Part shown: one piece after another, positions 2,301-42,041 of the stretch
Numbering within the stretch: position 1 is the first letter of the stretch
Layout of the letters: each line of letters starts with the position of its first letter
Assembly (NCBI GenBank): GCA_965237955.1
Contig: OZ250169.1
Coordinates: forward strand, 7,744,001 to 7,808,000
DNA: 64,000 nt
Direction of reading: 5' to 3'
From: Candidatus Marinacidobacterales bacterium
GTDB taxonomy: Bacteria; Acidobacteriota; Vicinamibacteria; Marinacidobacterales; SMYC01
The notes under the pieces: model-generated
Told to the model about the DNA's origin: nothing
The model's input: only the letters and a program-made list of their open reading frames with translations
Database searches by the model: none
Made by a program: the position numbers and the translations under genes

Positions 2301-2325
2301 AACTAATTCCGCCTCTCCTGCCATT

Positions 2326-3546
2326 TCAGTGGATCCTCTCGAGGGTGAGACCGCCACAGTTTAGGTAGACGAGACTGATGAGAGCTTCGGCAGAGTGGAG
2401 TCCAAAGCTGCGGTGGCTCAGCAGCCTGATTTTGTTGTTCATTCCTTCGAGTCGGCCGTTGCTGAGTCTCCACGTGACCCACGCGATGACGCCATCGAAG
2501 TGGCTGCGGATCATCTTCGCCGCGCGTTTGACGGGCTCTATCCTCGAGCTCATAGCGCGCCGCAGCCATCCTCGGAGAAACTTCTTGGCCCATGTCTCGG
2601 TTTTGTAGGTGTAGAGGTCCATGAAGTCGTCGCGCAGAAGCATGGCGCGGTAGAGGCGACGATTAGCTCGCACCTGCTCGCGGAGCACCCGTTTGTCTTT
2701 CGCGCTGCGGTTGTGTTTGGCCTTGAGAAGGGGAAACTTGGTGTTCTTGAGGTTGCGCCGGGCAGTCCCTTTGAGCTCGCGCACCAGCTCGCGCCGGGTC
2801 TTATCCACGGCCTCGTTCAGATGCTTGACGATGTGGAAGCGGTCAAAGATCACCCGTGCCTGAGGAGCCTTTTTGCCGACGACAGTTATGTACGGCTCCC
2901 ACATGTCCATGCTGACCGCTTCGAGCTCCGCGGCTCTTTGTGGTCCGAGCTTGCGGAAAAACCGCAGCAGCGTCTTGGCCTTGCGCTCCTTTCCCGCCCA
3001 GACGACCCGGCCGCTGAGATGGTCTATTACCACTGTTAAGTACTTGTGGCGTTTGCGGTAGCTGATCTCGTCCATCCCAATCACCCGCAATCCATCGAGC
3101 TCGCGCCGCTCATCCCGCTGCTCGGCAACCACTCGCTGGATGATCCGTCGCACCGAACGCCACGTCACTCGGAAATAGTTCGCTACGGCGCTGACGTCCG
3201 TCCTCTGTGCCAGCCACGCTACCTCTTGTTCGAAGCTTTTGGTAAAGCGGCTTCCCTTGTCTGCCCAAGGCACCTTTTCTCTGACCACTCCACACCGCCG
3301 ACATACCACTCGTCGGATCGAGTAGCGAAGATAGGTCCGGACTCCGAACAGGTCCAAGTGCCACCAGTAGCGATTGTAGCGATCTTTGTTCTTGCGGACC
3401 TTTCGTCCGCAAATCCCGCACAGAGGCTTCCTCCTCCGTGGTACTACATCCACCACCACTCTGGCTTTGTCCGCCTGGAAGTGGAAACCTCGGACCCACA
3501 GGCCTTGCAATCCGATGAGCTTGTTGACTAACGTAGTAACGCGCAT
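2326..3546 (-). CDS. ISL3 family transposase
   Basis: Zn finger CGIC...CRRC, GMDEISYRKRHKY, SMDMW, FDRFHIVK, SNGRLEGMNNKI. Start placed at MRVTTL. Confidence 0.95.
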   Translation of the reverse strand: MRVTTLVNKLIGLQGLWVRGFHFQADKARVVVDVVPRRRKPLCGICGRKVRKNKDRYNRYWWHLDLFGVRTYLRYSIRRVVCRRCGVVREKVPWADKGSRFTKSFEQEVAWLAQRTDVSAVANYFRVTWRSVRRIIQRVVAEQRDERRELDGLRVIGMDEISYRKRHKYLTVVIDHLSGRVVWAGKERKAKTLLRFFRKLGPQRAAELEAVSMDMWEPYITVVGKKAPQARVIFDRFHIVKHLNEAVDKTRRELVRELKGTARRNLKNTKFPLLKAKHNRSAKDKRVLREQVRANRRLYRAMLLRDDFMDLYTYKTETWAKKFLRGWLRRAMSSRIEPVKRAAKMIRSHFDGVIAWVTWRLSNGRLEGMNNKIRLLSHRSFGLHSAEALISLVYLNCGGLTLERIH

Positions 3547-3672
3547 CGCGGGAACGCTCTTTTCTCTTTCGGAAAAAAAGATTCTAGCGTTCTCGCCGAT
3601 GCGCATCTACACATGGCTTACCCTCTCAACCCACGGGCCTCACCAAATGCCACTGCCCCTCAGCGGGAGACA

Positions 3673-3984
3673 AGGCTGTGGGAAACGCCCCCACGGTTCT
3701 GGTCGTTCAGGCCTTGCTCACGACTGAGTTCTCTTCGAAGCCTGGAAGGGCGTTTTCCATAGCCTCCACTAATCGAGCCCCCCCTTCCTTATTCCATATG
3801 AATTAATCTTTCTTGTATATATATCAGGAGGGGCCTGTGGGCGCTCGTGGGAAACGCGAAGCGTTTTCCAAGCGATTGTGGAAAACGCCGCTCCACGTTT
3901 GTACGTGCTCACAACCTTTCCCTAAACGCCTCTCTCGCCCGGAGTTTCCGGCGTTTTCCACAATCGCGGCAGCGTCCATAGGCC
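3673..3984 (+). ncRNA. Candidate structured RNA in the non-coding arm of ISL3 copy 1
   Basis: Two stem domains (3673-3765 and 3832-3984) with a perfect 19-bp stem. Mismatches pair as G-U on this strand. Transcription is not shown. Confidence 0.4.
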
Positions 3985-4029
3985 ATGCCCTCCAACACAA
4001 ATCAGATCCCCCGAAACGACAGGAGAACC

Positions 4030-6466
4030 CTAATTCCTTTCGCCGACGAAGCCGGTTGGGTGGTAGTAGCGGTTGCCGACGACGCTGTCGGTCGGGTCGT
4101 AGAACGGGCCGCCGTCGTAGTCATCGATTAGGCCGGAGTAGCCGGCGCTGATATAAACGCCGTTGGCCACATCCGAGCAGCCCGAGAACGGAGCGTTCAC
4201 CAGTGCGGTCTCGTTCTTGACTTCGAAGTGCAGGTGCGGGTTGAAGTCGACGGGATCGCCGATGACGCCGATCTGTTGCCGCTGGGTGACGCGATCGCCC
4301 ACGCTCACGTAGCCGTCGGATTCGATGTGCCCGTAGAGACTGTAGACCGGCTCGTCGACCCCGTCGACGTCATGCTTGAGGATCACGACGTCGACGTAGT
4401 TGCCGCAGTTCTGGAGAACGGTGACGACGTCGCCTGCCGCTGCTGCGTAGACGGGCTCGCCCAACGTCATGCCCGACGAGCGGAACCAGTCTTCGCCGAG
4501 ATGTCCTCGAAACCAGCGGCCGAGGGAGCTGCTGTACCAGCTCTCGCCGAGGCCGAGGCTCACGAACCATCCGGATGCGTTGTCGGCGGATCCTACGGGG
4601 AACGCCCATGAGCTCCCGGTGGGAGGCAGATCGACGTCGCCGAAAGCGAACGTCGCGTCGTGGGACCACTCGCCCCACCCGAGTGAGTTCTCGGCGCGTG
4701 CGCGCCACGAATACAACGTATCGGCGTAGACCGGCCAAAACGTCTGAGCGTTCGTCGTCGGTTGGTACGTGTAGTAGTAGCGCCACTCGGCGCCGTCCCA
4801 ATAGTGGATGTCGAACGCGTAGCGCGTTGCGCCGGTGATCGCATCGACGCGCATCGTCACCGAGCTTCCGGAGACGGCCGCGCCGCCATCCGGGCTCAGC
4901 CCCGTGGGCGCCGGTGGCACCCGCGGGATGTTGCCGTAGTCGAAGTGCGACCACACCGACCACTCACCGGTACCGAAGCTGTTCTCCGCGCGCGCACGCC
5001 AGCGATACGCGATGTCGGCATAGGCTGGCCAGAACGTCTGGCTCGGCGTCGACGGCGAGTACGTGTAGTAGTACTGCCACGAAAGACCATCCCAATATCC
5101 GATCTCGAATTGGTACTGCGTCGCGCCCGCTACGGCTTCGACGACCAACGTCACGCTTGATGAGCCTGCCGCGAACACGGCGCCGTCCTGGGGGCTCGAT
5201 GGCGTCGGCGCGGGGGGCAAACGCGGCACGTTGCGAAATCGAATCCGAACCAGACAGACCACTCTCCGAAACCGTATGCGTTCTCCGCACGGGCCCGCCA
5301 TTGATAGGCGGTGTTATCGAAAGCCGGCCAGAACGTCTGCTGGCTCTCCGCGGGACGGTAGGTGTAGTAGTACTGCCACTCGGTGCCGCCCCAATACCAG
5401 ATCTCGAGCTCGTAGGTGCTCGCGCCGTCGATCGCCTCGACGCTCAACGTGACCGAGCTCGTGGTGATCACGGCGCCGTCCGCCGGGGTCAAAGGCGTCG
5501 GAGCCTCGGGGACGGTTCCGACTCGTCCGAAGTCGAAGCTCGACCAGCTCGACCACTCGCTCCAGCCGAAGGAGTTTCTCGCCCGCACTTGGAATCGGTA
5601 CCTCGTATCGATGAACGCGGGCCAGAAGGTTTGCGAGCTTGTACCGGGCTGATACGTGTAGTACTCCTGCCATGAACCACCGTCCCAGTACTGGATGTGG
5701 AACTCGTACGAGTCGGCGTTCGTCGGAGATTGAACCGAGAGCGTGACCGAGCCGGAGGAGATGACTGCGCCCGATGCAGGCGCGAGCCCAGTGGGTGTTG
5801 CCGGGGGCTCGCCTCCCGGAGCGACATCGACGAGGATGACGTTGTAATCGATGTTCACACCGCACAGATAACCGGTCGTGTACTGCTTGCCCGTGGGCTC
5901 GAACCAGCCCCCGAACGCCTGATAGGACCACGTGCTAAGACTCGCGACGCTGTCGTACCACGCGTACCACAAGGGCACGGGCGAGAACCGCGTCGAGCCC
6001 GGCATGTAAGCGTCCCACCACCACTTGGCGGTGTAAATGCCGCAAGACATCTCGCCGCAAGCATCGAGTGCTTCCTGAATCAAGTTCTCGAGCTGGGCGA
6101 CGCTTCGCCCGGCCGGATAGACTTCGACGTCGAGCCAGAGCCGGCCGATAGGGAGGCCGCTCACGGTGGATAACGCTGCTCGCACCTGGCTTTCGATGTC
6201 GCCATCCCAGTAGAGCACGACATACGCGTCGACCGAGAGGCCGCCGTCGACGGCGGTCTGCAACTGCTGCCGGGTAATGCTCTCTCGACCTGGGTGCCGG
6301 GAATGACGTGCTCGACGCCGTTCGCTCGCCAGCAGGCAACGTCGTCCGGGGTGATGTTTCCCGACCAATGCGAGACGTCCACCGCGAGCACCGGGTCATC
6401 GGCGAATGCCGGCGACCCTGCGAGTAGACAGACAAGGGAAAAGAGAGTTCGGAAGCCCAATCTCAC
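4030..6466 (-). CDS. Secreted peptidoglycan hydrolase: GH25-like domain, four Fn3-like repeats, M23 peptidase (two frameshifts)
   Basis: GTG start with GGAGG RBS and signal peptide. AVDVSHWSG, LWLDVE and CGIYT (GH25-like). Four ~95-aa repeats. HLGED and PHLHFE (M23). Frameshifts at ~6283 and ~5234. Confidence 0.75.
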
Positions 6467-22587: not shown

Positions 22588-25028
22588 TTACCGGCCGATG
22601 TCGAACTGCTTCGTGTACTTGACGATGAGCTGCCGGCCTTTCGGGCCTCTCTCGAATCCGGTGCGATCGAAAGCGCCGAAGTGCTGGATGTCGTTGTACA
22701 CGACGTAGAGGCGGTGCCGGCGGTGTTCAGCCAGCCGAAGCGGATGTTGCTGCTGACGTCTTCGGTCTCGTTGTTGTACTGGACCGTGGCCTGGAGAAAA
22801 ATCCGTGGCGTGAACGAATACGATCCCTTGAGCGCCACGACCGACGTAATGAAGTCGCCCTCGTTAAGGTTCACGTTGAAGTAGGCCACGCGTAGCGACG
22901 TGATGAACTTGTCCTGGTAGCGGTAGTTCACCGTGGTCGTGGTTCCGACCCTGCGGCCAGAGTAGAAACCACCCGCGTCGATCGTGCCCTGCACCGAGAA
23001 CGGAGCGCTGAGGTTCGTGTTGGCCCTAAACCCCCAATCGAAGTTTTCGTAGGTTCCGGGCGGGATGACGACGCCTTCACTGATCTCGAACGGCTCCTTG
23101 AGGCCTTCGCCGGTGAAGTTCACCGCCGGTAATTGGAAGAACGCGCCGTTCGAAAACTCGAAGTGGTTGTCGATATGGACGGAGTAGGATTCGGTGAAGC
23201 CCTCCAGGTCCCAGAACTGTCGCCACAAAATATGCGGCCTCAGCTCCCTGAACCATTCGACGTTCGGAAAACGGAATGCGCGTAGGATAAGGGTAGTGAT
23301 GTGGCGGTAGTCTCGCCGAGGCAGGAACCCGACCTCGGGGTTGAACTCCGCTCCGATCTCCCGATAAGTCGCGGACAAACGCCATTCGCGGGTATTGTAC
23401 GAACTTCTGAAGTTGAATCCGTATTGCCCGTTGTCCACCCCAGGTGTGGTCGTCCCCGCCGCCCAGCCGGTGAGATTGATGGCCTCGCCGATCCCGTAGG
23501 TACCATCGACCGCGTAGGTGAGGTTGTAGTCGCTCGAATTGTCGGTGTTCACTCGCGACACGAAGATTCCCCCGACACGGGTGCGGTTTTCGAACTCCTG
23601 GAACAGCCGCACCACACCGAAGTTGTTGGGCGGCTCGACGCGAACGTCCTCACCGATGTCGTCGTCGAAGACATCGAGGTGGTTGGCTTGGATCGCTAGT
23701 CCCCTGGAACAGAGGTTCGTAGCCTAAAGCTCGACGCCATTTTGTGGGCTGGCGAGGCGTGACGACGAAGTCATATTGGAATATTTCGAGGAGGAACAAC
23801 GAAGCCAGCGCGCAAAAAGGGCCCGAGATTTAGGCTACGAACCTCTGTTCCAGGGGACTAGGAACCCGACTTGCATGCCGGCCATCTTGCCGGTCAACCG
23901 GGCGCCGCCCTGGATCGGGACGGATTCGCCTCCGAAGAGGCCAATGCGTCTACTGAAGAACAGCTCGGCGGAACGCGGCGAACCCACTGAAAACGACCCC
24001 GCGTTCTCGAGAAAAAACGGCCGCTTCTCGGGAAAGAACAAGGGGAATCGGGTGAGGTTCACCTGCAGATCATCGACCTCGACCTGCGCGAAGTCGGTGT
24101 TGACCGTCAGGTCCAACGTCAGGCTCTGCGTCAGCCCGATCTTGGCCTCTCCGCCGATCGTGCCGTCGCCCGAGGCCGCCGACTCGCGCGTGTAGTCGCG
24201 AGAAACATCGCCGAGAGCATAAGGTGTTACCGTGAAGATCTTTCGGTTGGGCGCCTCGAACTCGGTGAGTGTTCCCGCAAGCGATACGCGGAACAATGTG
24301 AATTGACGCGGGATCGGTGACCACACTGACCGTTCGTTGCGAATGCGGATGTTGCGGGCGAAGTTCACGCCCCACGTCTGTCCACCACCGTGTTGATAGC
24401 GCAGCGTGTCGAAAGGGATGCGAAGCTCTGCGAACCAGCCGCTCTCGTCGGTAGAGGTTGCGACTTCCCAGGCGCCGTCCCAATTGACGTTGAAGCCACC
24501 GCCGGAGCCGGCCCGCTGACGTCGTGGTCCGCGGCCTCCCCCTCCTCCTCCTCCTCTGCCACCCTGACCGTCGCGGGTGACCTGACCGTCGAACTCGATG
24601 CCCGCGGGCGTCGTCCCGAAGACGAACCCGTTCTGCCGGTCCAGGTAGGTATCGATCACCATCACAAAGGCGTCGGTGTTTTGAAGCGACGCATCGCGAC
24701 GGCTCTCTCCGACGACGATTGTGGAGGGGTCGTCGACGAACATCCACGCGCCAACGTATAACGCCGACTCGTCATAGACGAGACGGATCTCGGTTCGCTC
24801 CGAGACCGGCTCTCCCTCGACTGGCTCGAGCTGCACGAAGTCGCTAAGGATCTCGGCGTCGTTCCAGGCGATGTCGTCGAGACGTCCGTCGATGACCGGG
24901 GGTTCTGCTACCAGCGCCGCCGTTCCCACTGGTACCCGGGTTCGGTCGGCGGTCGCTGGGGGATCCTGAGCTTTTAGGACAAAAGCTGAAAGCGAGAGGA
25001 CGATGATCGGGATTGTCGGGTTGCGCAC
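22588..25028 (-). pseudogene. CBM9-like/DUF5916 outer-membrane protein interrupted by a MITE
   Basis: PVIDGRLDD, TVNTDFAQVEVD, FFPEKRPFFLE, LFFSRRIG. Excising the insert rejoins GFL-AIQ in frame. Extra frameshift at ~22711. Confidence 0.85.
23696..23861. mobile_element. MITE flanked by duplicated CTAG
   Basis: 33-bp perfect inverted repeat CTAGTCCCCTGGAACAGAGGTTCGTAGCCTAAA at both ends, non-coding core, net insertion of 162 bp. Confidence 0.9.
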
Positions 25029-34229: not shown

Positions 34230-35444
34230 ATGAGCTCACTCGACCGCCGCACTTTCTTGAAAACCACCGCGGCTAGTCTCGCGGTTGTGCCTGCGAGCCG
34301 GGCGCTGGCAGCGCCCTCCGACGAGGACCCTCTGGGTGTGCGCCGCGACTTCCCAATCACCGACACGCTTACCTACCTCGACACTGCCAACCGCGCACCT
34401 TTTCCGATAGCGGTGAGGGATGCCACCGTCGCTTATGCGGACGTGAAGATGCACATGGGTTTCGCCGCCCGCAGGGACCAGATTCGAGAGGAGGCGCGCG
34501 AGCGGTTTGCCGCGCTATTCGGCGCCAAGCCCGAAGAGATCGCCATTCTCTACTCCACGAGCGACGGTGAGAACATCGTCGCCAGCGCTCTCGACCTCGG
34601 AGCTGGCGACAACGTCGTCATCGACGAGCTCCACTTCGTGACGAGCTTCGTCCTGTACCGAGAACTCGAGAAAGAGAAAGGCATCGAGCTCCGTATCGTG
34701 CCTCAGCGAGACGGTCGCTCGGACATGGAGGATTTCGACGCCCGCATCGATGGCAAAACGAAGCTCGTGTCGGTGGCGTGGGTCTCGAATCGTAACGGCT
34801 TTCGCGAGGACGTGCGAGGCTTGGCGGAGTTGGCGCACCGCAAGGGCGCTTTCCTCTACGCCGACGGCGTCCAGGCCATCGGACACTTCCCCACCAGCCT
34901 CACCGAGGAGGGCGTCGACTTCGTCACCACCAACTCGTACAAGTGGCTGTTCGCGAGCTACGGCGCCGCGCCTTTCTTCGTCCGTGAGGAGCTCCTCGAT
35001 CGGATCCGCCCGGACCGCTACGGCCACCAGCAGACCGAGGAGACGCTCGACAACTACCACTACCGACTGCGAACGACGGCGAGAAAGTACGAGTACGCGG
35101 CCCCCGCGTACAACATCGTCTATCAGTTGAACGCGGGCCTCGGGTACTTGAAAGAAGTCGGCCTCCACCGCATCGAAAAGCACACCGTGGCGCTCGCCCA
35201 CGAGCTAAGAGACGGGCTTGCGAGTCTCGGATTCGACCCCTGGACGCCTCCTAAGAACAACTCCCCTATCGTCAGCTTTGCTCACGGACGAGACACTGAC
35301 GAAATGCAGAAGCGCTTCGACAAGGAGGGCATCGTCGTCACCTTCCGCGAGAAGGAGGGTTCGGTGATTCGGGTGTCGGTCTCGCTGTTCAACAACCGAG
35401 CGGATATTCACAAGCTGCTGAAGGTGCTGGAGACGGTCGCTTAG
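34230..35444 (+). CDS. Class V aminotransferase-fold PLP enzyme with Tat signal
   Basis: DRRTFLK leader, YLDTA, DGVQAIG, SYKWL. Confidence 0.85.
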   Translation: MSSLDRRTFLKTTAASLAVVPASRALAAPSDEDPLGVRRDFPITDTLTYLDTANRAPFPIAVRDATVAYADVKMHMGFAARRDQIREEARERFAALFGAKPEEIAILYSTSDGENIVASALDLGAGDNVVIDELHFVTSFVLYRELEKEKGIELRIVPQRDGRSDMEDFDARIDGKTKLVSVAWVSNRNGFREDVRGLAELAHRKGAFLYADGVQAIGHFPTSLTEEGVDFVTTNSYKWLFASYGAAPFFVREELLDRIRPDRYGHQQTEETLDNYHYRLRTTARKYEYAAPAYNIVYQLNAGLGYLKEVGLHRIEKHTVALAHELRDGLASLGFDPWTPPKNNSPIVSFAHGRDTDEMQKRFDKEGIVVTFREKEGSVIRVSVSLFNNRADIHKLLKVLETVA

Positions 35445-35672
35445 TGCCAACAAAAACCCGCGAAGATATCGGTCTCGCGTGTCTTGCCGCGTCAACTGGT
35501 TGGAGGAGCCCGCACGGCGCTCTGAAGTTCGGGCGTGAGACCCGGACTCCGGCGATGCAGGCCGGACTCGCCACCCGGCGACTCACTTTCCGCGAGGTAT
35601 TCGTGTGTCTGCCGTCATCCTTATTAGGGTTCTCCTGTCGTTTCGGGGGATCTGATTTGTGTTGGAGGGCAT

Positions 35673-35984
35673 GGCCTATGGACGCTGCCGCGATTGTGGA
35701 AAACGCCGGAAACTCCGGGCGAGAGAGGCGTTTAGGGAAAGGTTGTGAGCACGTACAAACGTGGAGCGGCGTTTTCCACAATCGCTTGGAAAACGCTTCG
35801 CGTTTCCCACGAGCGCCCACAGGCCCCTCCTGATATATATACAAGAAAGATTAATTCATATGGAATAAGGAAGGGGGGGCTCGATTAGTGGAGGCTATGG
35901 AAAACGCCCTTCCAGGCTTCGAAGAGAACTCAGTCGTGAGCAAGGTCTGAACGACCAGAACCGTGGGGGCGTTTCCCACAGCCT
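35673..35984 (-). ncRNA. Candidate structured RNA in the non-coding arm of ISL3 copy 2
   Basis: Perfect stem 35690-35708/35767-35785, outer stem 35673-35686/35812-35825, second stem 35892-35909/35967-35984. Confidence 0.4.
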
Positions 35985-36110
35985 TGTCTCCCGCTGAGGG
36001 GCAGTGGCATTTGGTGAGGCCCGTGGGTTGAGAGGGTAAGCCATGTGTAGATGCGCATCGGCGAGAACGCTAGAATCTTTTTTTCCGAAAGAGAAAAGAG
36101 CGTTCCCGCG

Positions 36111-37331
36111 ATGCGCGTTACTACGTTAGTCAACAAGCTCATCGGATTGCAAGGCCTGTGGGTCCGAGGTTTCCACTTCCAGGCGGACAAAGCCAGAGTG
36201 GTGGTGGATGTAGTACCACGGAGGAGGAAGCCTCTGTGCGGGATTTGCGGACGAAAGGTCCGCAAGAACAAAGATCGCTACAATCGCTACTGGCGGCACT
36301 TGGACCTGTTCGGAGTCCGGACCTATCTTCGCTACTCGATCCGACGAGTGGTATGTCGGCGGTGTGGAGTGGTCAGAGAAAAGGTGCCTTGGGCAGACAA
36401 GGGAAGCCGCTTTACCAAAAGCTTCGAACAAGAGGTAGCGTGGCTGGCACAGAGGACGGACGTCAGCGCCGTAGCGAACTATTTCCGAGTGACGTGGCGT
36501 TCGGTGCGACGGATCATCCAGCGAGTGGTTGCCGAGCAGCGGGATGAGCGGCGCGAGCTCGATGGATTGCGGGTGATTGGGATGGACGAGATCAGCTACC
36601 GCAAACGCCACAAGTACTTAACAGTGGTAATAGACCATCTCAGCGGCCGGGTCGTCTGGGCGGGAAAGGAGCGCAAGGCCAAGACGCTGCTGCGGTTTTT
36701 CCGCAAGCTCGGACCACAAAGAGCCGCGGAGCTCGAAGCGGTCAGCATGGACATGTGGGAGCCGTACAGAACTGTCGTCGGCAAAAAGGCTCCTCAGGCA
36801 CGGGTGATCTTTGACCGCTTCCACATCGTCAAGCATCTGAACGAGGCCGTGGATAAGACCCGGCGCGAGCTGGTGCGCGAGCTCAAAGGGACTGCCCGGC
36901 GCAACCTCAAGAACACCAAGTTTCCCCTTCTCAAGGCCAAACACAACCGCAGCGCGAAAGACAAACGGGTGCTCCGCGAGCAGGTGCGAGCTAATCGTCG
37001 CCTCTACCGCGCCATGCTTCTGCGCGACAACTTCATGGACCTCTACACCTACAAAACCGAGACATGGGCCAAGAAGTTTCTCCGAGGATGGCTGCGGCGC
37101 GCTATGAGCTCGAGGATAGAGCCCGTCAAACGCGCGGCGAAGATGATCCGCAGCCACTTCGATGGCGTCATCGCGTGGGTCACGTGGAGACTCAGCAACG
37201 GCCGACTCGAAGGAATGAACAACAAAATCCGGCTGCTGAGCCACCGCAGCTTTGGACTCCACTCTGCCGAAGCTCTCATCAGTCTCGTCTACCTAAACTG
37301 TGGCGGTCTCACCCTCGAGAGGATCCACTGA
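36111..37331 (+). CDS. ISL3 family transposase
   Basis: Same motifs as copy 1 with three amino-acid differences visible. Confidence 0.95.
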   Translation: MRVTTLVNKLIGLQGLWVRGFHFQADKARVVVDVVPRRRKPLCGICGRKVRKNKDRYNRYWRHLDLFGVRTYLRYSIRRVVCRRCGVVREKVPWADKGSRFTKSFEQEVAWLAQRTDVSAVANYFRVTWRSVRRIIQRVVAEQRDERRELDGLRVIGMDEISYRKRHKYLTVVIDHLSGRVVWAGKERKAKTLLRFFRKLGPQRAAELEAVSMDMWEPYRTVVGKKAPQARVIFDRFHIVKHLNEAVDKTRRELVRELKGTARRNLKNTKFPLLKAKHNRSAKDKRVLREQVRANRRLYRAMLLRDNFMDLYTYKTETWAKKFLRGWLRRAMSSRIEPVKRAAKMIRSHFDGVIAWVTWRLSNGRLEGMNNKIRLLSHRSFGLHSAEALISLVYLNCGGLTLERIH

Positions 37332-37359
37332 AATGGCAGGAGAGGCCTTATTAGTAAGC

Positions 37360-39912: not shown

Positions 39913-40307
39913 GCGCGGCGACCGATCGTTCAGGCTAGTTCTTTGTCGGCATAATTATTGGTGGAATATTCTCCTCCTGGATGATCTCATTGAAGGCGAC
40001 TACGTCTTCATCAAGAATCTCCTGGAGTTTGTCAAGGTGTATCGCGAGTTTGGTTCAAGCTCCTCAAAACTCTCGTAGGAACCGTCCGTTGGCCGAGCCT
40101 CTGCACCGAGGACAACTCCTAAGACATAAAAGAAGCGAGTATCCAACTGGGGCGGGAAATTGATCATCATATCGGCACCCTTCTCGTATTCTGTTTGTAT
40201 CAGCTGTTGTTCGACCGACGTGAGTTTCTCGCTCAGCTCATCGGCAATCTGAACAACTGAACCGCCCCGGGTTTCCCGGAGACTCCAACTCTTGAGAGGA
40301 TGGAGTC

Positions 40308-41539
<1,232 letters not shown>

Positions 41540-42041
41540 AACAGTCTCCGGAAAACCCGGGGCGGTTCACAACAGGCAGATTCAATTGAAAAGACTGCCA
41601 ACTGTTTCCATCATCGAAGGAAATATACATGCCAAACTCAGTGCCGGCATAAAGGAGCCCTTTACGGTCAGGATCCTCGCGAACAACCCTGACAAAGTGG
41701 TTGGAGGGAATGCCGTTGTTAACCGTTATTAGACACCAGTTCTTGCCGGAATCATTGGTTCTGAAAATGTAAGGCGTAAAATCGTCTTCGCGGTACTTGT
41801 GCACCACTACAAAAGCCCGGCCTGGATCGTGGGCAGAAGGCTCGATCACGTTTGCCGTTCCCCATTCAGGCATTCCCTCAGGGGTGATGTTCTCCCCTCC
41901 CCGGCACGCCAACGGACCTTGATTTTTCCTATTGATTCGGGGACGGCGACGCACTTCGGCATCTGGGATGCGGCGAGCAGCGGAGACACGGTACAATTCG
42001 GCCCTGGAGACCTCACGATTACAGAAGACTAGGAGTGTCTT

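What the first reader, a model, noticed from the sequence alone, without database searches (positions are those of the whole stretch)
35628..36110. ISL3 element carries a strand-specific multibranch RNA-like structure in a ~480-bp non-coding arm
Seen in both copies: an outer stem (GGCCTATGGACGCT/AGCGCCCACAGGCC) encloses a perfect 19-bp stem and a small hairpin. An AT-rich linker and a second 18-bp stem sharing the TGGAAAACGC motif follow. All five stem mismatches I counted are A.C on the transposase strand and therefore G.U on the opposite strand. Established: IS110/IS1111 and IS200/IS605 elements encode functional RNAs in non-coding ends; I know of none described for ISL3. Inference: a divergently transcribed structured RNA (or ssDNA structure) belonging to the element.
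Basis: partly seen in the sequence, partly recalled or inferred. Interest (0 to 1): 0.8.

Follow-up and report, generated by a model that had tools for sequence, protein, structure and literature searches.

The report
Origin-mimicking DNA junction in insertion sequences
The non-coding arm of this jumping gene carries a branched hairpin, shared with several unrelated jumping-gene families, whose sequence resembles the host's replication-origin signals; it likely folds as single-stranded DNA rather than RNA and likely recruits the initiator protein DnaA to copy the element's excised strand.

Summary
The stems, five A·C/G·T mismatches and strand bias are confirmed in an active ISL3 (53 full copies). 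The RNA reading is not supported. The core (35673-35825) belongs to a covarying three-way junction found at ends of IS3, IS21, IS110, IS256, IS481 and ISL3 elements, in 26 of 101 genomes of the phylum. Its loops are DNA mini-hairpins (GNA in 37 of 56 triloops; GNRA/UNCG 2 of 129 loops). Each arm carries a DnaA-box-like word with a G·T pair at the same position. A period-3 tail and AT-rich tract follow in the register of this phylum's oriC unwinding module (DnaA boxes plus DnaA-trios). Best reading (0.5): a strand-specific, DnaA-dependent priming site, like the ABC-primosome A-site, that gives the displaced strand of copy-out transposition its second strand. One dimer junction fits the predicted donor end. 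Against: nothing tested biochemically, most ISL3 relatives lack it, the tail is weak in this ISL3, and an alphaproteobacterial variant has non-canonical trios. I found no paper describing it; this scan noted a similar DnaA-box hairpin in other IS elements (e1-9824944).

The parts
35628..37346 (+). ISL3-family insertion sequence, 1719 bp, imperfect 25-bp terminal inverted repeats (19/25), flanked by the 8-bp target duplication CTTATTAG (35620-35627, 37347-37354)
   Evidence: 53 full copies in G000, 41 with an exact 8-bp duplication; end sequences
36111..37331 (+). ISL3 transposase (406 aa from ATG 36111, the likely start; longest ORF from 36051)
   Evidence: Pfam DDE_Tnp_ISL3 E 1e-70, HTH and Zn ribbon; start inferred from relatives
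35673..35825 (-). Module 1: three-way junction folding on the minus (G.T) strand. P1 35673-35686/35812-35825; P2 35787-35809 with a C(GAA)G loop; P3 35690-35708/35767-35785 with variable inner part
   Evidence: CM R1 score 85.4 bits, E 4e-21; folds; covariation of the family
35695..35703 (-). DnaA-box-type 9-mer TTTTCCACA in the P3 stem
   Evidence: sequence; commonest box word in 29 dnaA-downstream regions of the phylum; species box listed for Koribacter in PMC8287927 Table S1
35772..35780 (+). Second TTTTCCACA 9-mer, pairing partner of the first
   Evidence: sequence
35827..35835 (-). DnaA-trio-like 5' tail of the junction (3'-GAG GAC TAT-5'), one base further out than the family's usual register
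   Evidence: family register; window copy scores 2 of 4 and the ISL3 group is only marginally above shuffles
35832..35890 (.). AT-rich linker (64% AT in a 60% GC genome)
   Evidence: AT-rich side conserved in 49 of 54 family members
35892..35997 (-). Module 2: long stem with the same box words and two G.T pairs (35892-35909/35967-35984) plus a C-anchored period-3 tail (35985-35997)
   Evidence: CM 24.8 bits; same double module in an IS21 right arm, L042
36050..36120 (+). Hairpin burying the likely transposase start codon; possibly limits translation of read-through transcripts; no consistent strand preference
   Evidence: folds -37.6 (+) / -33.5 (-) here, -32.4 / -34.4 in the divergent copy
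2311..4029 (-). Second copy of the same ISL3 in the window; its module 1 lies at 3812-3984 and folds on the + strand

Best explanation
The arm carries a portable three-way-junction module that likely folds only when the element's bottom strand is single-stranded DNA and likely serves as a DnaA-dependent helicase/primase loading site for copy-out-paste-in transposition. Shown by sequence: the structure, its strand, its DnaA-box-like words, a trio-like tail and its presence in several circle-forming IS families. Inferred step 1: the transposase bridges one strand, and replication from the donor flank displaces that strand. Inferred step 2: the displaced strand folds, and its GNA loops would resist SSB. 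In duplex DNA the box next to the tail usually carries C at position 4, where origin boxes carry T; folding would pair that G with the T of a distant arm and so assemble a box beside an already single-stranded tail. Inferred step 3: DnaA would bind the stems, extend onto the tail and load DnaB/DnaG, as at the ABC-primosome A-site, making the double-stranded circle that is then integrated.
For: (1) Structure is selected: 93.7% of cells paired, 109 two-sided changes against 39+/-4 shuffled, 0/500 (30 hand-picked of 58 delimited instances). In this ISL3 lineage the stems are near-invariant while inner loops drift. (2) Strand: 58 of 58 (RNA parameters) and 57 of 58 (DNA) fold better on the G.T strand; 25 of 25 in the CM-found set. 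(3) DNA-type loops: GNA in 37 of 56, 11 of 23 and 42 of 80 triloops in three sets, against about 6% expected; 0 of 54 on the other strand; set 2 has 33 GNNA tetraloops, of which only 9 are GNRA. PMC13037366 (passages) says GNA/GNNA mini-hairpins are much more stable in DNA than in RNA and occur at ssDNA priming sites. (4) Origin likeness: TCCACA occurs at 5.45/kb in 29 dnaA-downstream regions against 0.39/kb genome-wide. These regions end in box-box-4 nt-CTAC repeats, as does the published Koribacter BUS. The IS flank, not part of my search pattern, has C at +5/+8/+11/+14 in 0.70/0.74/0.54/0.45 of 84 instances; phase score 4.0 against 2.3+/-0.12 (0/2000), control flank 2.35 against 2.21. The signal holds separately in IS3, IS21 and IS110. 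The trio middle base is A or C in 138 of 166 triplets against 45% background; these are the two bases B. subtilis DnaA accepts (PMC10721633 section 10). (5) G.T sits at box position 4 in all three arms (27, 20 and 27 of 30). The proximal box has C there in 75 of 85 instances; origin boxes have T in 42 of 53. (6) Neighbours: 63 IS3, 23 IS21, 9 IS110, 4 ISL3, 2 IS256, 2 IS481, 2 tyrosine recombinases and 3 DUF222 among 108 assigned of 201 instances. IS3, IS21, IS256, IS110 and ISL3 are listed as circle-forming in bioRxiv 2023.06.07.543989. (7) Non-autonomous ISL3 derivatives keep the module: a multi-copy 367-bp MITE with 8-bp duplications, and L006. (8) One head-to-tail dimer of this ISL3 in G015 has a 5-bp spacer equal to the first 5 nt of the first copy's target duplication (L392). 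By the spacer rule in PMC7780238, IRL was then the donor and the bottom (G.T) strand the bridged one.
Against: No binding, priming or transposition assay exists. The module is not needed by ISL3 in general: none in the 16 distant ISL3 loci apart from one weak edge hit (E 0.013), and a variant in only 2 of 10 loci at 35-42% identity. The tail is weakest in the ISL3 group itself (1.8 against 1.23, 44/1000) and absent in IS256 (n = 2). Only 26 of 84 flanks pass the published (NAN)x3 rule. In the alphaproteobacterial set the period-3 G is kept but the middle base is T in 121 of 200 triplets, and I could not find that clade's oriC to compare. The two boxes next to the tail in this ISL3 differ from TTATCCACA at 3-4 positions, outside the published BUS limits. 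The folding strand is the top strand in 10 of 108 assigned cases and differs even between ISL3 relatives L374 and L376. Either end can be the donor in an IS256-family element. The dimer evidence is one junction of four, and insertion followed by recombination could also explain it. No circle junction was seen in 4 DNA runs. The family tally has no abundance control, and its tblastn references came from families found first. The stems' box words were part of my search patterns.
Confidence: 0.5

Rival explanations
1. The module works in duplex DNA as a DnaA-binding mini-origin or regulatory site: it replicates the excised circle, ties transposition to DnaA-ATP levels, or titrates DnaA. The hairpins are secondary.
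For: Box-spacer-trio-AT-tract order matches oriC. It works in either orientation. 117 of the 274 TTWTNCACA sites in G000 lie in these ISL3 copies.
Against: Covariation, strand-specific G.T pairs and GNA loops have no meaning in duplex DNA. The box beside the tail has C at position 4, unlike origin boxes. The 22 dnaA loci searched do not match the junction model.
Confidence: 0.17
2. It is an ssDNA signal read by something other than DnaA: PriA, primase, RNA polymerase or the transposase. It primes or protects the displaced strand, and the box likeness is inherited from a captured origin.
For: All ssDNA evidence applies. GNA mini-hairpins occur at primase and N4 RNA polymerase sites (PMC13037366). 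The tail is non-canonical in set 2 and weak in ISL3.
Against: Three arms each keep the box word, and the tail keeps the A/C middle-base rule in set 1. Unrelated transposase folds (DDE, DEDD, tyrosine recombinase) share it, which argues against a transposase ligand.
Confidence: 0.17
3. One reading: a divergently transcribed structured RNA of the element (antisense regulator or transposase cofactor).
For: G.U-biased strand asymmetry. In two RNA runs of one study, contigs over the arm have about twice the depth of those over the ORF (24.5 vs 10-13; 22.7 vs 3-11).
Against: GNRA plus UNCG make up 2 of 129 loops. No promoter match and no Rfam family. Loop contents are not conserved. The RNA contigs carry no strand, one runs across the element's end into flank, and arm-only derivatives could raise the depth.
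Confidence: 0.08
4. It is a selfish or neutral repeat (REP/MITE-like passenger) that hitch-hikes in IS ends with no role in transposition.
For: Patchy within ISL3 and variable in orientation. 93 of 201 instances were left unassigned, many on short contigs.
Against: In G000, 61 of 62 model hits lie in ISL3 copies or derivatives and the other beside an IS3-type orfA remnant. It has no target duplication or ends of its own that I could see, and it is kept in multiplying MITEs.
Confidence: 0.08

Closest known systems
A-site of the ABC primosome (ssDNA hairpin with a DnaA box; PMC6127211, passages read; its R6K plasmid origin is recalled)
   Same: A hairpin rebuilds a duplex DnaA box in ssDNA. In the A-site this lets DnaA load DnaB so that DnaG primes, which is the function proposed here.
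   Different: The A-site has one box in one hairpin. This module has three box-bearing arms, a conserved G.T at box position 4, a trio-like 5' tail and an AT tract, and lies in insertion sequences. Activity is untested.
oriC basal unwinding system (tandem DnaA boxes + spacer + DnaA-trios; PMC8287927 and PMC10721633, passages, one section and supplement rows read)
   Same: Two co-oriented box words, a 4-nt spacer, period-3 repeats with 3'-G-A/C, and AT-rich DNA, in the same register as origins of this phylum.
   Different: Origins act in duplex DNA and do not match the junction model. Here the proximal box is degenerate in duplex form and the trios are fewer and looser.
IS110 bridge RNA / IS1111 seekRNA and IS200/IS605 omega RNA (bridge RNA from bioRxiv 2025.10.25.684509 abstract and one section; the others recalled)
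   Same: A structured, strand-specific element in a non-coding IS end.
   Different: No guide-like loops, no promoter, DNA-type loops, and shared across unrelated transposase families. Some IS110 elements carry it too.
REP / TnpA-REP hairpins (PMC6006769, passages read)
   Same: Imperfect, strand-specific ssDNA hairpins associated with mobile DNA.
   Different: Not dispersed on its own in G000, no GTAG/GTGG foot was identified, and no HUH Y1 partner appeared among the neighbours scanned.
ISL3 family insertion sequences
   Same: The host element is an ordinary ISL3: DDE_Tnp_ISL3 transposase, imperfect IRs and an 8-bp AT-rich duplication.
   Different: A 480-bp left arm holding a double module that an IS21 right arm also has.

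Membership tests
ISL3 | ISL3-type DDE transposase | tested here: met
   Pfam PF01610, PF13542, PF14690
ISL3 | Terminal inverted repeats and 8-bp AT-rich target duplication | tested here: met
   19/25 IR match; 41 of 53 copies with an exact 8-bp duplication
ISL3 | Forms abutted-end (circle or dimer) junctions | tested here: inconclusive
   two 5-bp and two 11-bp IRR-IRL junctions in G015, none in G000; no circle junction in 4 DNA runs
ABC-primosome A-site | DnaA box within the stem of an ssDNA hairpin | tested here: met
   TTTTCCACA pair in the 19-bp P3 stem; box words in all three arms
ABC-primosome A-site | DnaA/DnaB/DnaC/DnaG-dependent priming on SSB-coated ssDNA | not testable with these tools
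   needs the in vitro assay described in PMC6127211
oriC basal unwinding system | Tandem co-oriented DnaA boxes with at most 2 and 4 mismatches | tested here: not met
   window copy: TTTCCCACG (3 mismatches) and GCGCCCACA (4) against TTATCCACA; rule from PMC8287927
oriC basal unwinding system | At least three NAN trios within 16 nt of the box | tested here: inconclusive
   met by the window copy (3'-GAG GAC TAT-5') and by 26 of 84 family members, against 4 of 57 control flanks and 9 of 21 origin regions; not met by most of set 2
oriC basal unwinding system | DnaA-ATP-dependent unwinding of duplex DNA | not testable with these tools
   no assay possible
IS-encoded guide RNA (bridge/seek/omega) | Discrete transcript from the non-coding end | tested here: inconclusive
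   RNA-run contigs cover the arm but give no strand or ends
IS-encoded guide RNA (bridge/seek/omega) | Specific to one RNA-binding transposase or nuclease family | tested here: not met
   found with DDE, DEDD and tyrosine-recombinase genes; absent from most ISL3 relatives
Known Rfam family | Match at gathering threshold | tested here: not met
REP / free-standing repeat | Dispersed copies outside larger elements | tested here: not met
   61 of 62 hits in G000 are in ISL3 copies or derivatives

The most novel reading that the evidence does not exclude
Insertion sequences of at least six unrelated families have captured and exchanged a miniature, conformationally switched replication origin. It is silent in the chromosome because the key DnaA box is broken, and it is completed by G.T pairing when the excised strand folds next to its own DnaA-trio tail. 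This would be a dedicated cis-acting priming signal for copy-out-paste-in transposition, and would show the oriC unwinding module reused on single-stranded DNA.
Probability: 0.4. Interest if true: 0.92.

Novelty: new variant of a known kind. Interest (0 to 1): 0.8.

Why it matters
Copy-out-paste-in is described as the pathway of a majority of bacterial IS families, and host replication converts its figure-eight into a double-stranded circle (PMC7780238). How the displaced strand is primed is, to my knowledge (recalled), unresolved. A defined ~100-nt module with predicted protein partner, strand and critical bases makes this directly testable. It would also link transposition rate to DnaA and the cell cycle, supply a natural DnaA-box + trio-tail scaffold, and warn RNA-motif screens that covarying, G.U-biased structures in IS ends can be DNA.

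Tried and rejected
Rfam at gathering and E-value thresholds: nothing. BLASTN of the arm against plasmids: one 26-nt hit; a family member against phages: none; two pattern scans of viral contigs: 0 hits. Alignment used wrongly oriented loci and was discarded. Orientation of the 53 copies relative to replichores: 28 vs 25, no bias. Circle junctions in four DNA runs: none listed, but contigs drop rare forms. RNA runs X7 and X10 barely cover the arm; X1 and X2 are one study and unstranded. The L384 and L382 hits first looked like a second ISL3 arm; L384's lies outside the ISL3 left end and matches the right end of an IS21 element, so both were dropped. L005 (88% aa) has lost its left end, so it is uninformative. 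An attempt to compare the alphaproteobacterial tail with its host origin failed: no origin beside hemE in G738. The pattern found 2 of 301 genomes in that phylum sample. The flank register table for set 3 is mis-indexed and unused. The oriC profile was picked with a score in the same phase (11 of 29 regions), so I rely on the raw sequences, the offset count (offset 4 in 7 of 15 sites) and the published row. Hairpins as UUCG tetraloops on the plus strand: rejected, the register forces a triloop and UNCG is 0 of 128. Literature searches that found no description of this module: (listings only, apart from the papers cited); subscription journals and bioRxiv supplements were not searchable.

Full report
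THE ELEMENT. The finding lies in the left arm of a 1719-bp ISL3 insertion sequence (35628-37346) with a Pfam ISL3 transposase. G000 holds 53 full copies, 41 with an exact 8-bp AT-rich duplication. Copies 99-100% identical in protein occur in G009, G015 and G025. The host is probably an acidobacterium: most named records carrying the motif are Acidobacteriota MAGs; this is inference. The likely start codon is 36111, so the arm is about 480 bp.

THE OBSERVATION. All stems and the five A.C mismatches are as described. The minus strand folds better than chance and better than the plus strand in z-score terms. The two window copies are near-identical and give no independent support. Rfam has no match and no sigma-70 promoter consensus was found in 35400-36300.

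IT IS A FAMILY, NOT AN ISL3 FEATURE. Loci L031-L182 gave 161 instances, 85 after removing near-duplicates; 58 of these had a recognisable outer stem. All 58 fold better on the TGTGG strand as RNA and 57 as DNA. An alignment of 30 hand-picked, similar-length members gave a three-way junction with 93.7% of cells paired and 109 two-sided changes against 39+/-4 in shuffles; slid controls were 40-53% paired. Relatedness can inflate this, and P2 was fixed by my pattern. A covariance model scored the window module at 85 bits and found matches in 26 of 101 genomes of the phylum. In G000, 61 of 62 hits are ISL3-derived and one lies beside an IS3-type orfA remnant. A second pattern gave 121 metagenome stretches, 91 distinct, with relatives on Bradyrhizobium plasmids. 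Of 201 instances, 108 were assigned a neighbour: IS3 63, IS21 23, IS110 9, ISL3 4, DUF222 3, IS256 2, IS481 2, tyrosine recombinase 2. The folding strand is the gene's bottom strand in 98 and its top strand in 10. Pfam scans of neighbouring ORFs added one IS1634-type gene (L257). They also found two cut-and-paste-type genes at loci where an IS3 or IS21 end owns the motif (L110, L055; the L055 assignment is by likeness to L054). There was no abundance control. The whole double module of this ISL3 arm aligns with the right arm of an IS21 (L042), which suggests exchange between families. ISL3 relatives mostly lack it; L374 has a variant in the same orientation and L376 in the opposite one.

DNA RATHER THAN RNA. 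G.T asymmetry fits either polymer, but loops discriminate. On the folding strand GNA makes up 37 of 56, 11 of 23 and 42 of 80 triloops in three sets (about 6% expected). GNRA plus UNCG are 2 of 129 loops in set 1, and set 2's GNNA tetraloops are mostly not GNRA (9 of 33). The window's own loop is GCGAAGC. PMC13037366 (passages) reports that only GNA triloops form the stable DNA mini-hairpin, that an RNA counterpart is far less stable, that such hairpins bind SSB poorly, and that they occur at phage and plasmid priming sites. RNA-run contigs cover the arm at about twice the ORF depth in one study but give no strand, and one crosses the element's end; this is inconclusive.

ORIGIN LIKENESS. Each arm carries TGTGG(R)/(T)CCAC. 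The host's dnaA-dnaN gap has the same words. In 29 such regions of the phylum TCCACA is 14-fold denser than genome-wide, and TTTTCCACAG is the commonest word. Several end in box-box-4 nt-CTAC repeats, as does the published Koribacter unwinding module (PMC8287927 Table S1 row). The IS flank on that side, outside my patterns, shows the same register (C at +5, +8, +11, +14; 0 of 2000 shuffles; control flank not significant) and is AT-richer than the other flank in 49 of 54. The middle base on the folding strand is A or C in 138 of 166 triplets; B. subtilis DnaA accepts A or C there and prefers 3'-GA-5' (PMC10721633 section 10). The tail lies 5' of the junction; PMC8287927 found that DnaA oligomers need boxes plus a 5' tail of trios. 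A G.T pair occupies box position 4 in all three arms. The box beside the tail has C there in 75 of 85 and 71 of 91 instances, whereas origin words have T in 42 of 53. I infer a switch: weak in duplex, completed on folding. Against: the tail is marginal in the ISL3 group (44/1000) and absent in IS256; only 26 of 84 pass the strict trio rule; set 2 has T in the middle in 121 of 200 triplets; and the window's tail-side boxes carry 3-4 mismatches to TTATCCACA.

MECHANISM. In copy-out-paste-in, one end attacks the flank of the other, and host replication makes a double-stranded circle (PMC7780238 passages). IS3, IS21, IS256, IS110 and ISL3 are listed as circle-forming (bioRxiv 2023.06.07.543989 passages), and one IS110 is shown to copy out its top strand (bioRxiv 2025.10.25.684509 section 7). 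A DnaA-box hairpin in ssDNA is sufficient for DnaA to load DnaB and for DnaG to prime (PMC6127211 passages). I therefore propose that the module is an A-site-like loading site on the displaced strand (0.5). One prediction could be checked. A dimer of this ISL3 in G015 has the spacer GAAAT, the first five bases of the first copy's duplication, which points to IRL as donor and the bottom strand as the displaced one. That is one of four junctions; the other 5-bp junction is uninformative, and the two 11-bp ones look like adjacent insertions. ISL3-type MITEs that keep multiplying retain the module. Rivals: duplex DnaA site or mini-origin (0.17), ssDNA signal for another protein (0.17), RNA (0.08), passenger (0.08).

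NOVELTY. Searches found no paper describing such a module in insertion sequences; subscription journals and preprint supplements were not visible. It works like the ABC-primosome A-site and resembles the oriC unwinding module, but is not shown to be a member of either. I registered this reading before opening the scan's notes. The scan has noted a ~100-nt DnaA-box hairpin shared by other IS elements (e1-9824944), a phiX174-type priming signal in ISLre2 elements (e1-3142010), and an IS110 leader with DnaA-box-like sites judged not origin-like (e1-9991528). These are unchecked leads, not support. What this report adds by its own tests: the DNA-type loop statistics, the trio register with its A/C rule, the position-4 G.T in three arms, the family and strand tally, and the dimer junction.

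Noticed in passing
window 40258-41569: IS3-family element with 27-bp inverted repeats and an ALIL frameshift pseudoknot (40586-40699); it has no match to the junction model.
   Followed up: partly
window 23696-23861: 58-bp inverted repeat arms (88% complementary) around a 50-nt spacer, a MITE- or REP-like unit; not examined further.
   Followed up: no
window 4641-5747: Four ~294-bp repeats inside a minus-strand gene, with one 299-bp spacing that suggests a frameshift or sequencing error.
   Followed up: no
L073:2427-2793 (also L070, L074, L078, L129, L143): A 367-bp multi-copy MITE with ISL3-type ends and 8-bp duplications in five of the copies read, carrying the junction module and no gene.
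   Followed up: partly
L006:993-1420: Deletion derivative of this ISL3 lineage (arm plus right end) inserted just upstream of an unrelated ISL3 transposase.
   Followed up: partly
L368:137-168 and L369:2500-2527: A single hairpin with the same box words and position-4 mismatch lies between short repeats and a probable rep gene on Ralstonia and Cupriavidus megaplasmids; the BLAST hits are short and weak and the region is unannotated.
   Followed up: partly
G000 whole genome: 117 of 274 TTWTNCACA sites lie in these ISL3 copies (1.3% of the genome), so the expansion could titrate DnaA whatever the module's function.
   Followed up: no
L122, L085, L287: The module also sits beside DUF222/HNH genes; L122 has two modules back to back in opposite orientation.
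   Followed up: no
L393, L394 (G015): Two ISL3 copies separated by 11 bp, with target duplications offset by 3 nt in L393; possibly targeted insertion beside a resident end.
   Followed up: partly
window 37147-37149 and 36714: 14 of 53 copies lack 3 bp near the transposase 3' end, and one copy has a 34-bp insertion.
   Followed up: no
L247-L367: Alphaproteobacterial-type variants often lack the P3 arm and have CAA/CAG tails (middle T on the folding strand); unexplained.
   Followed up: partly
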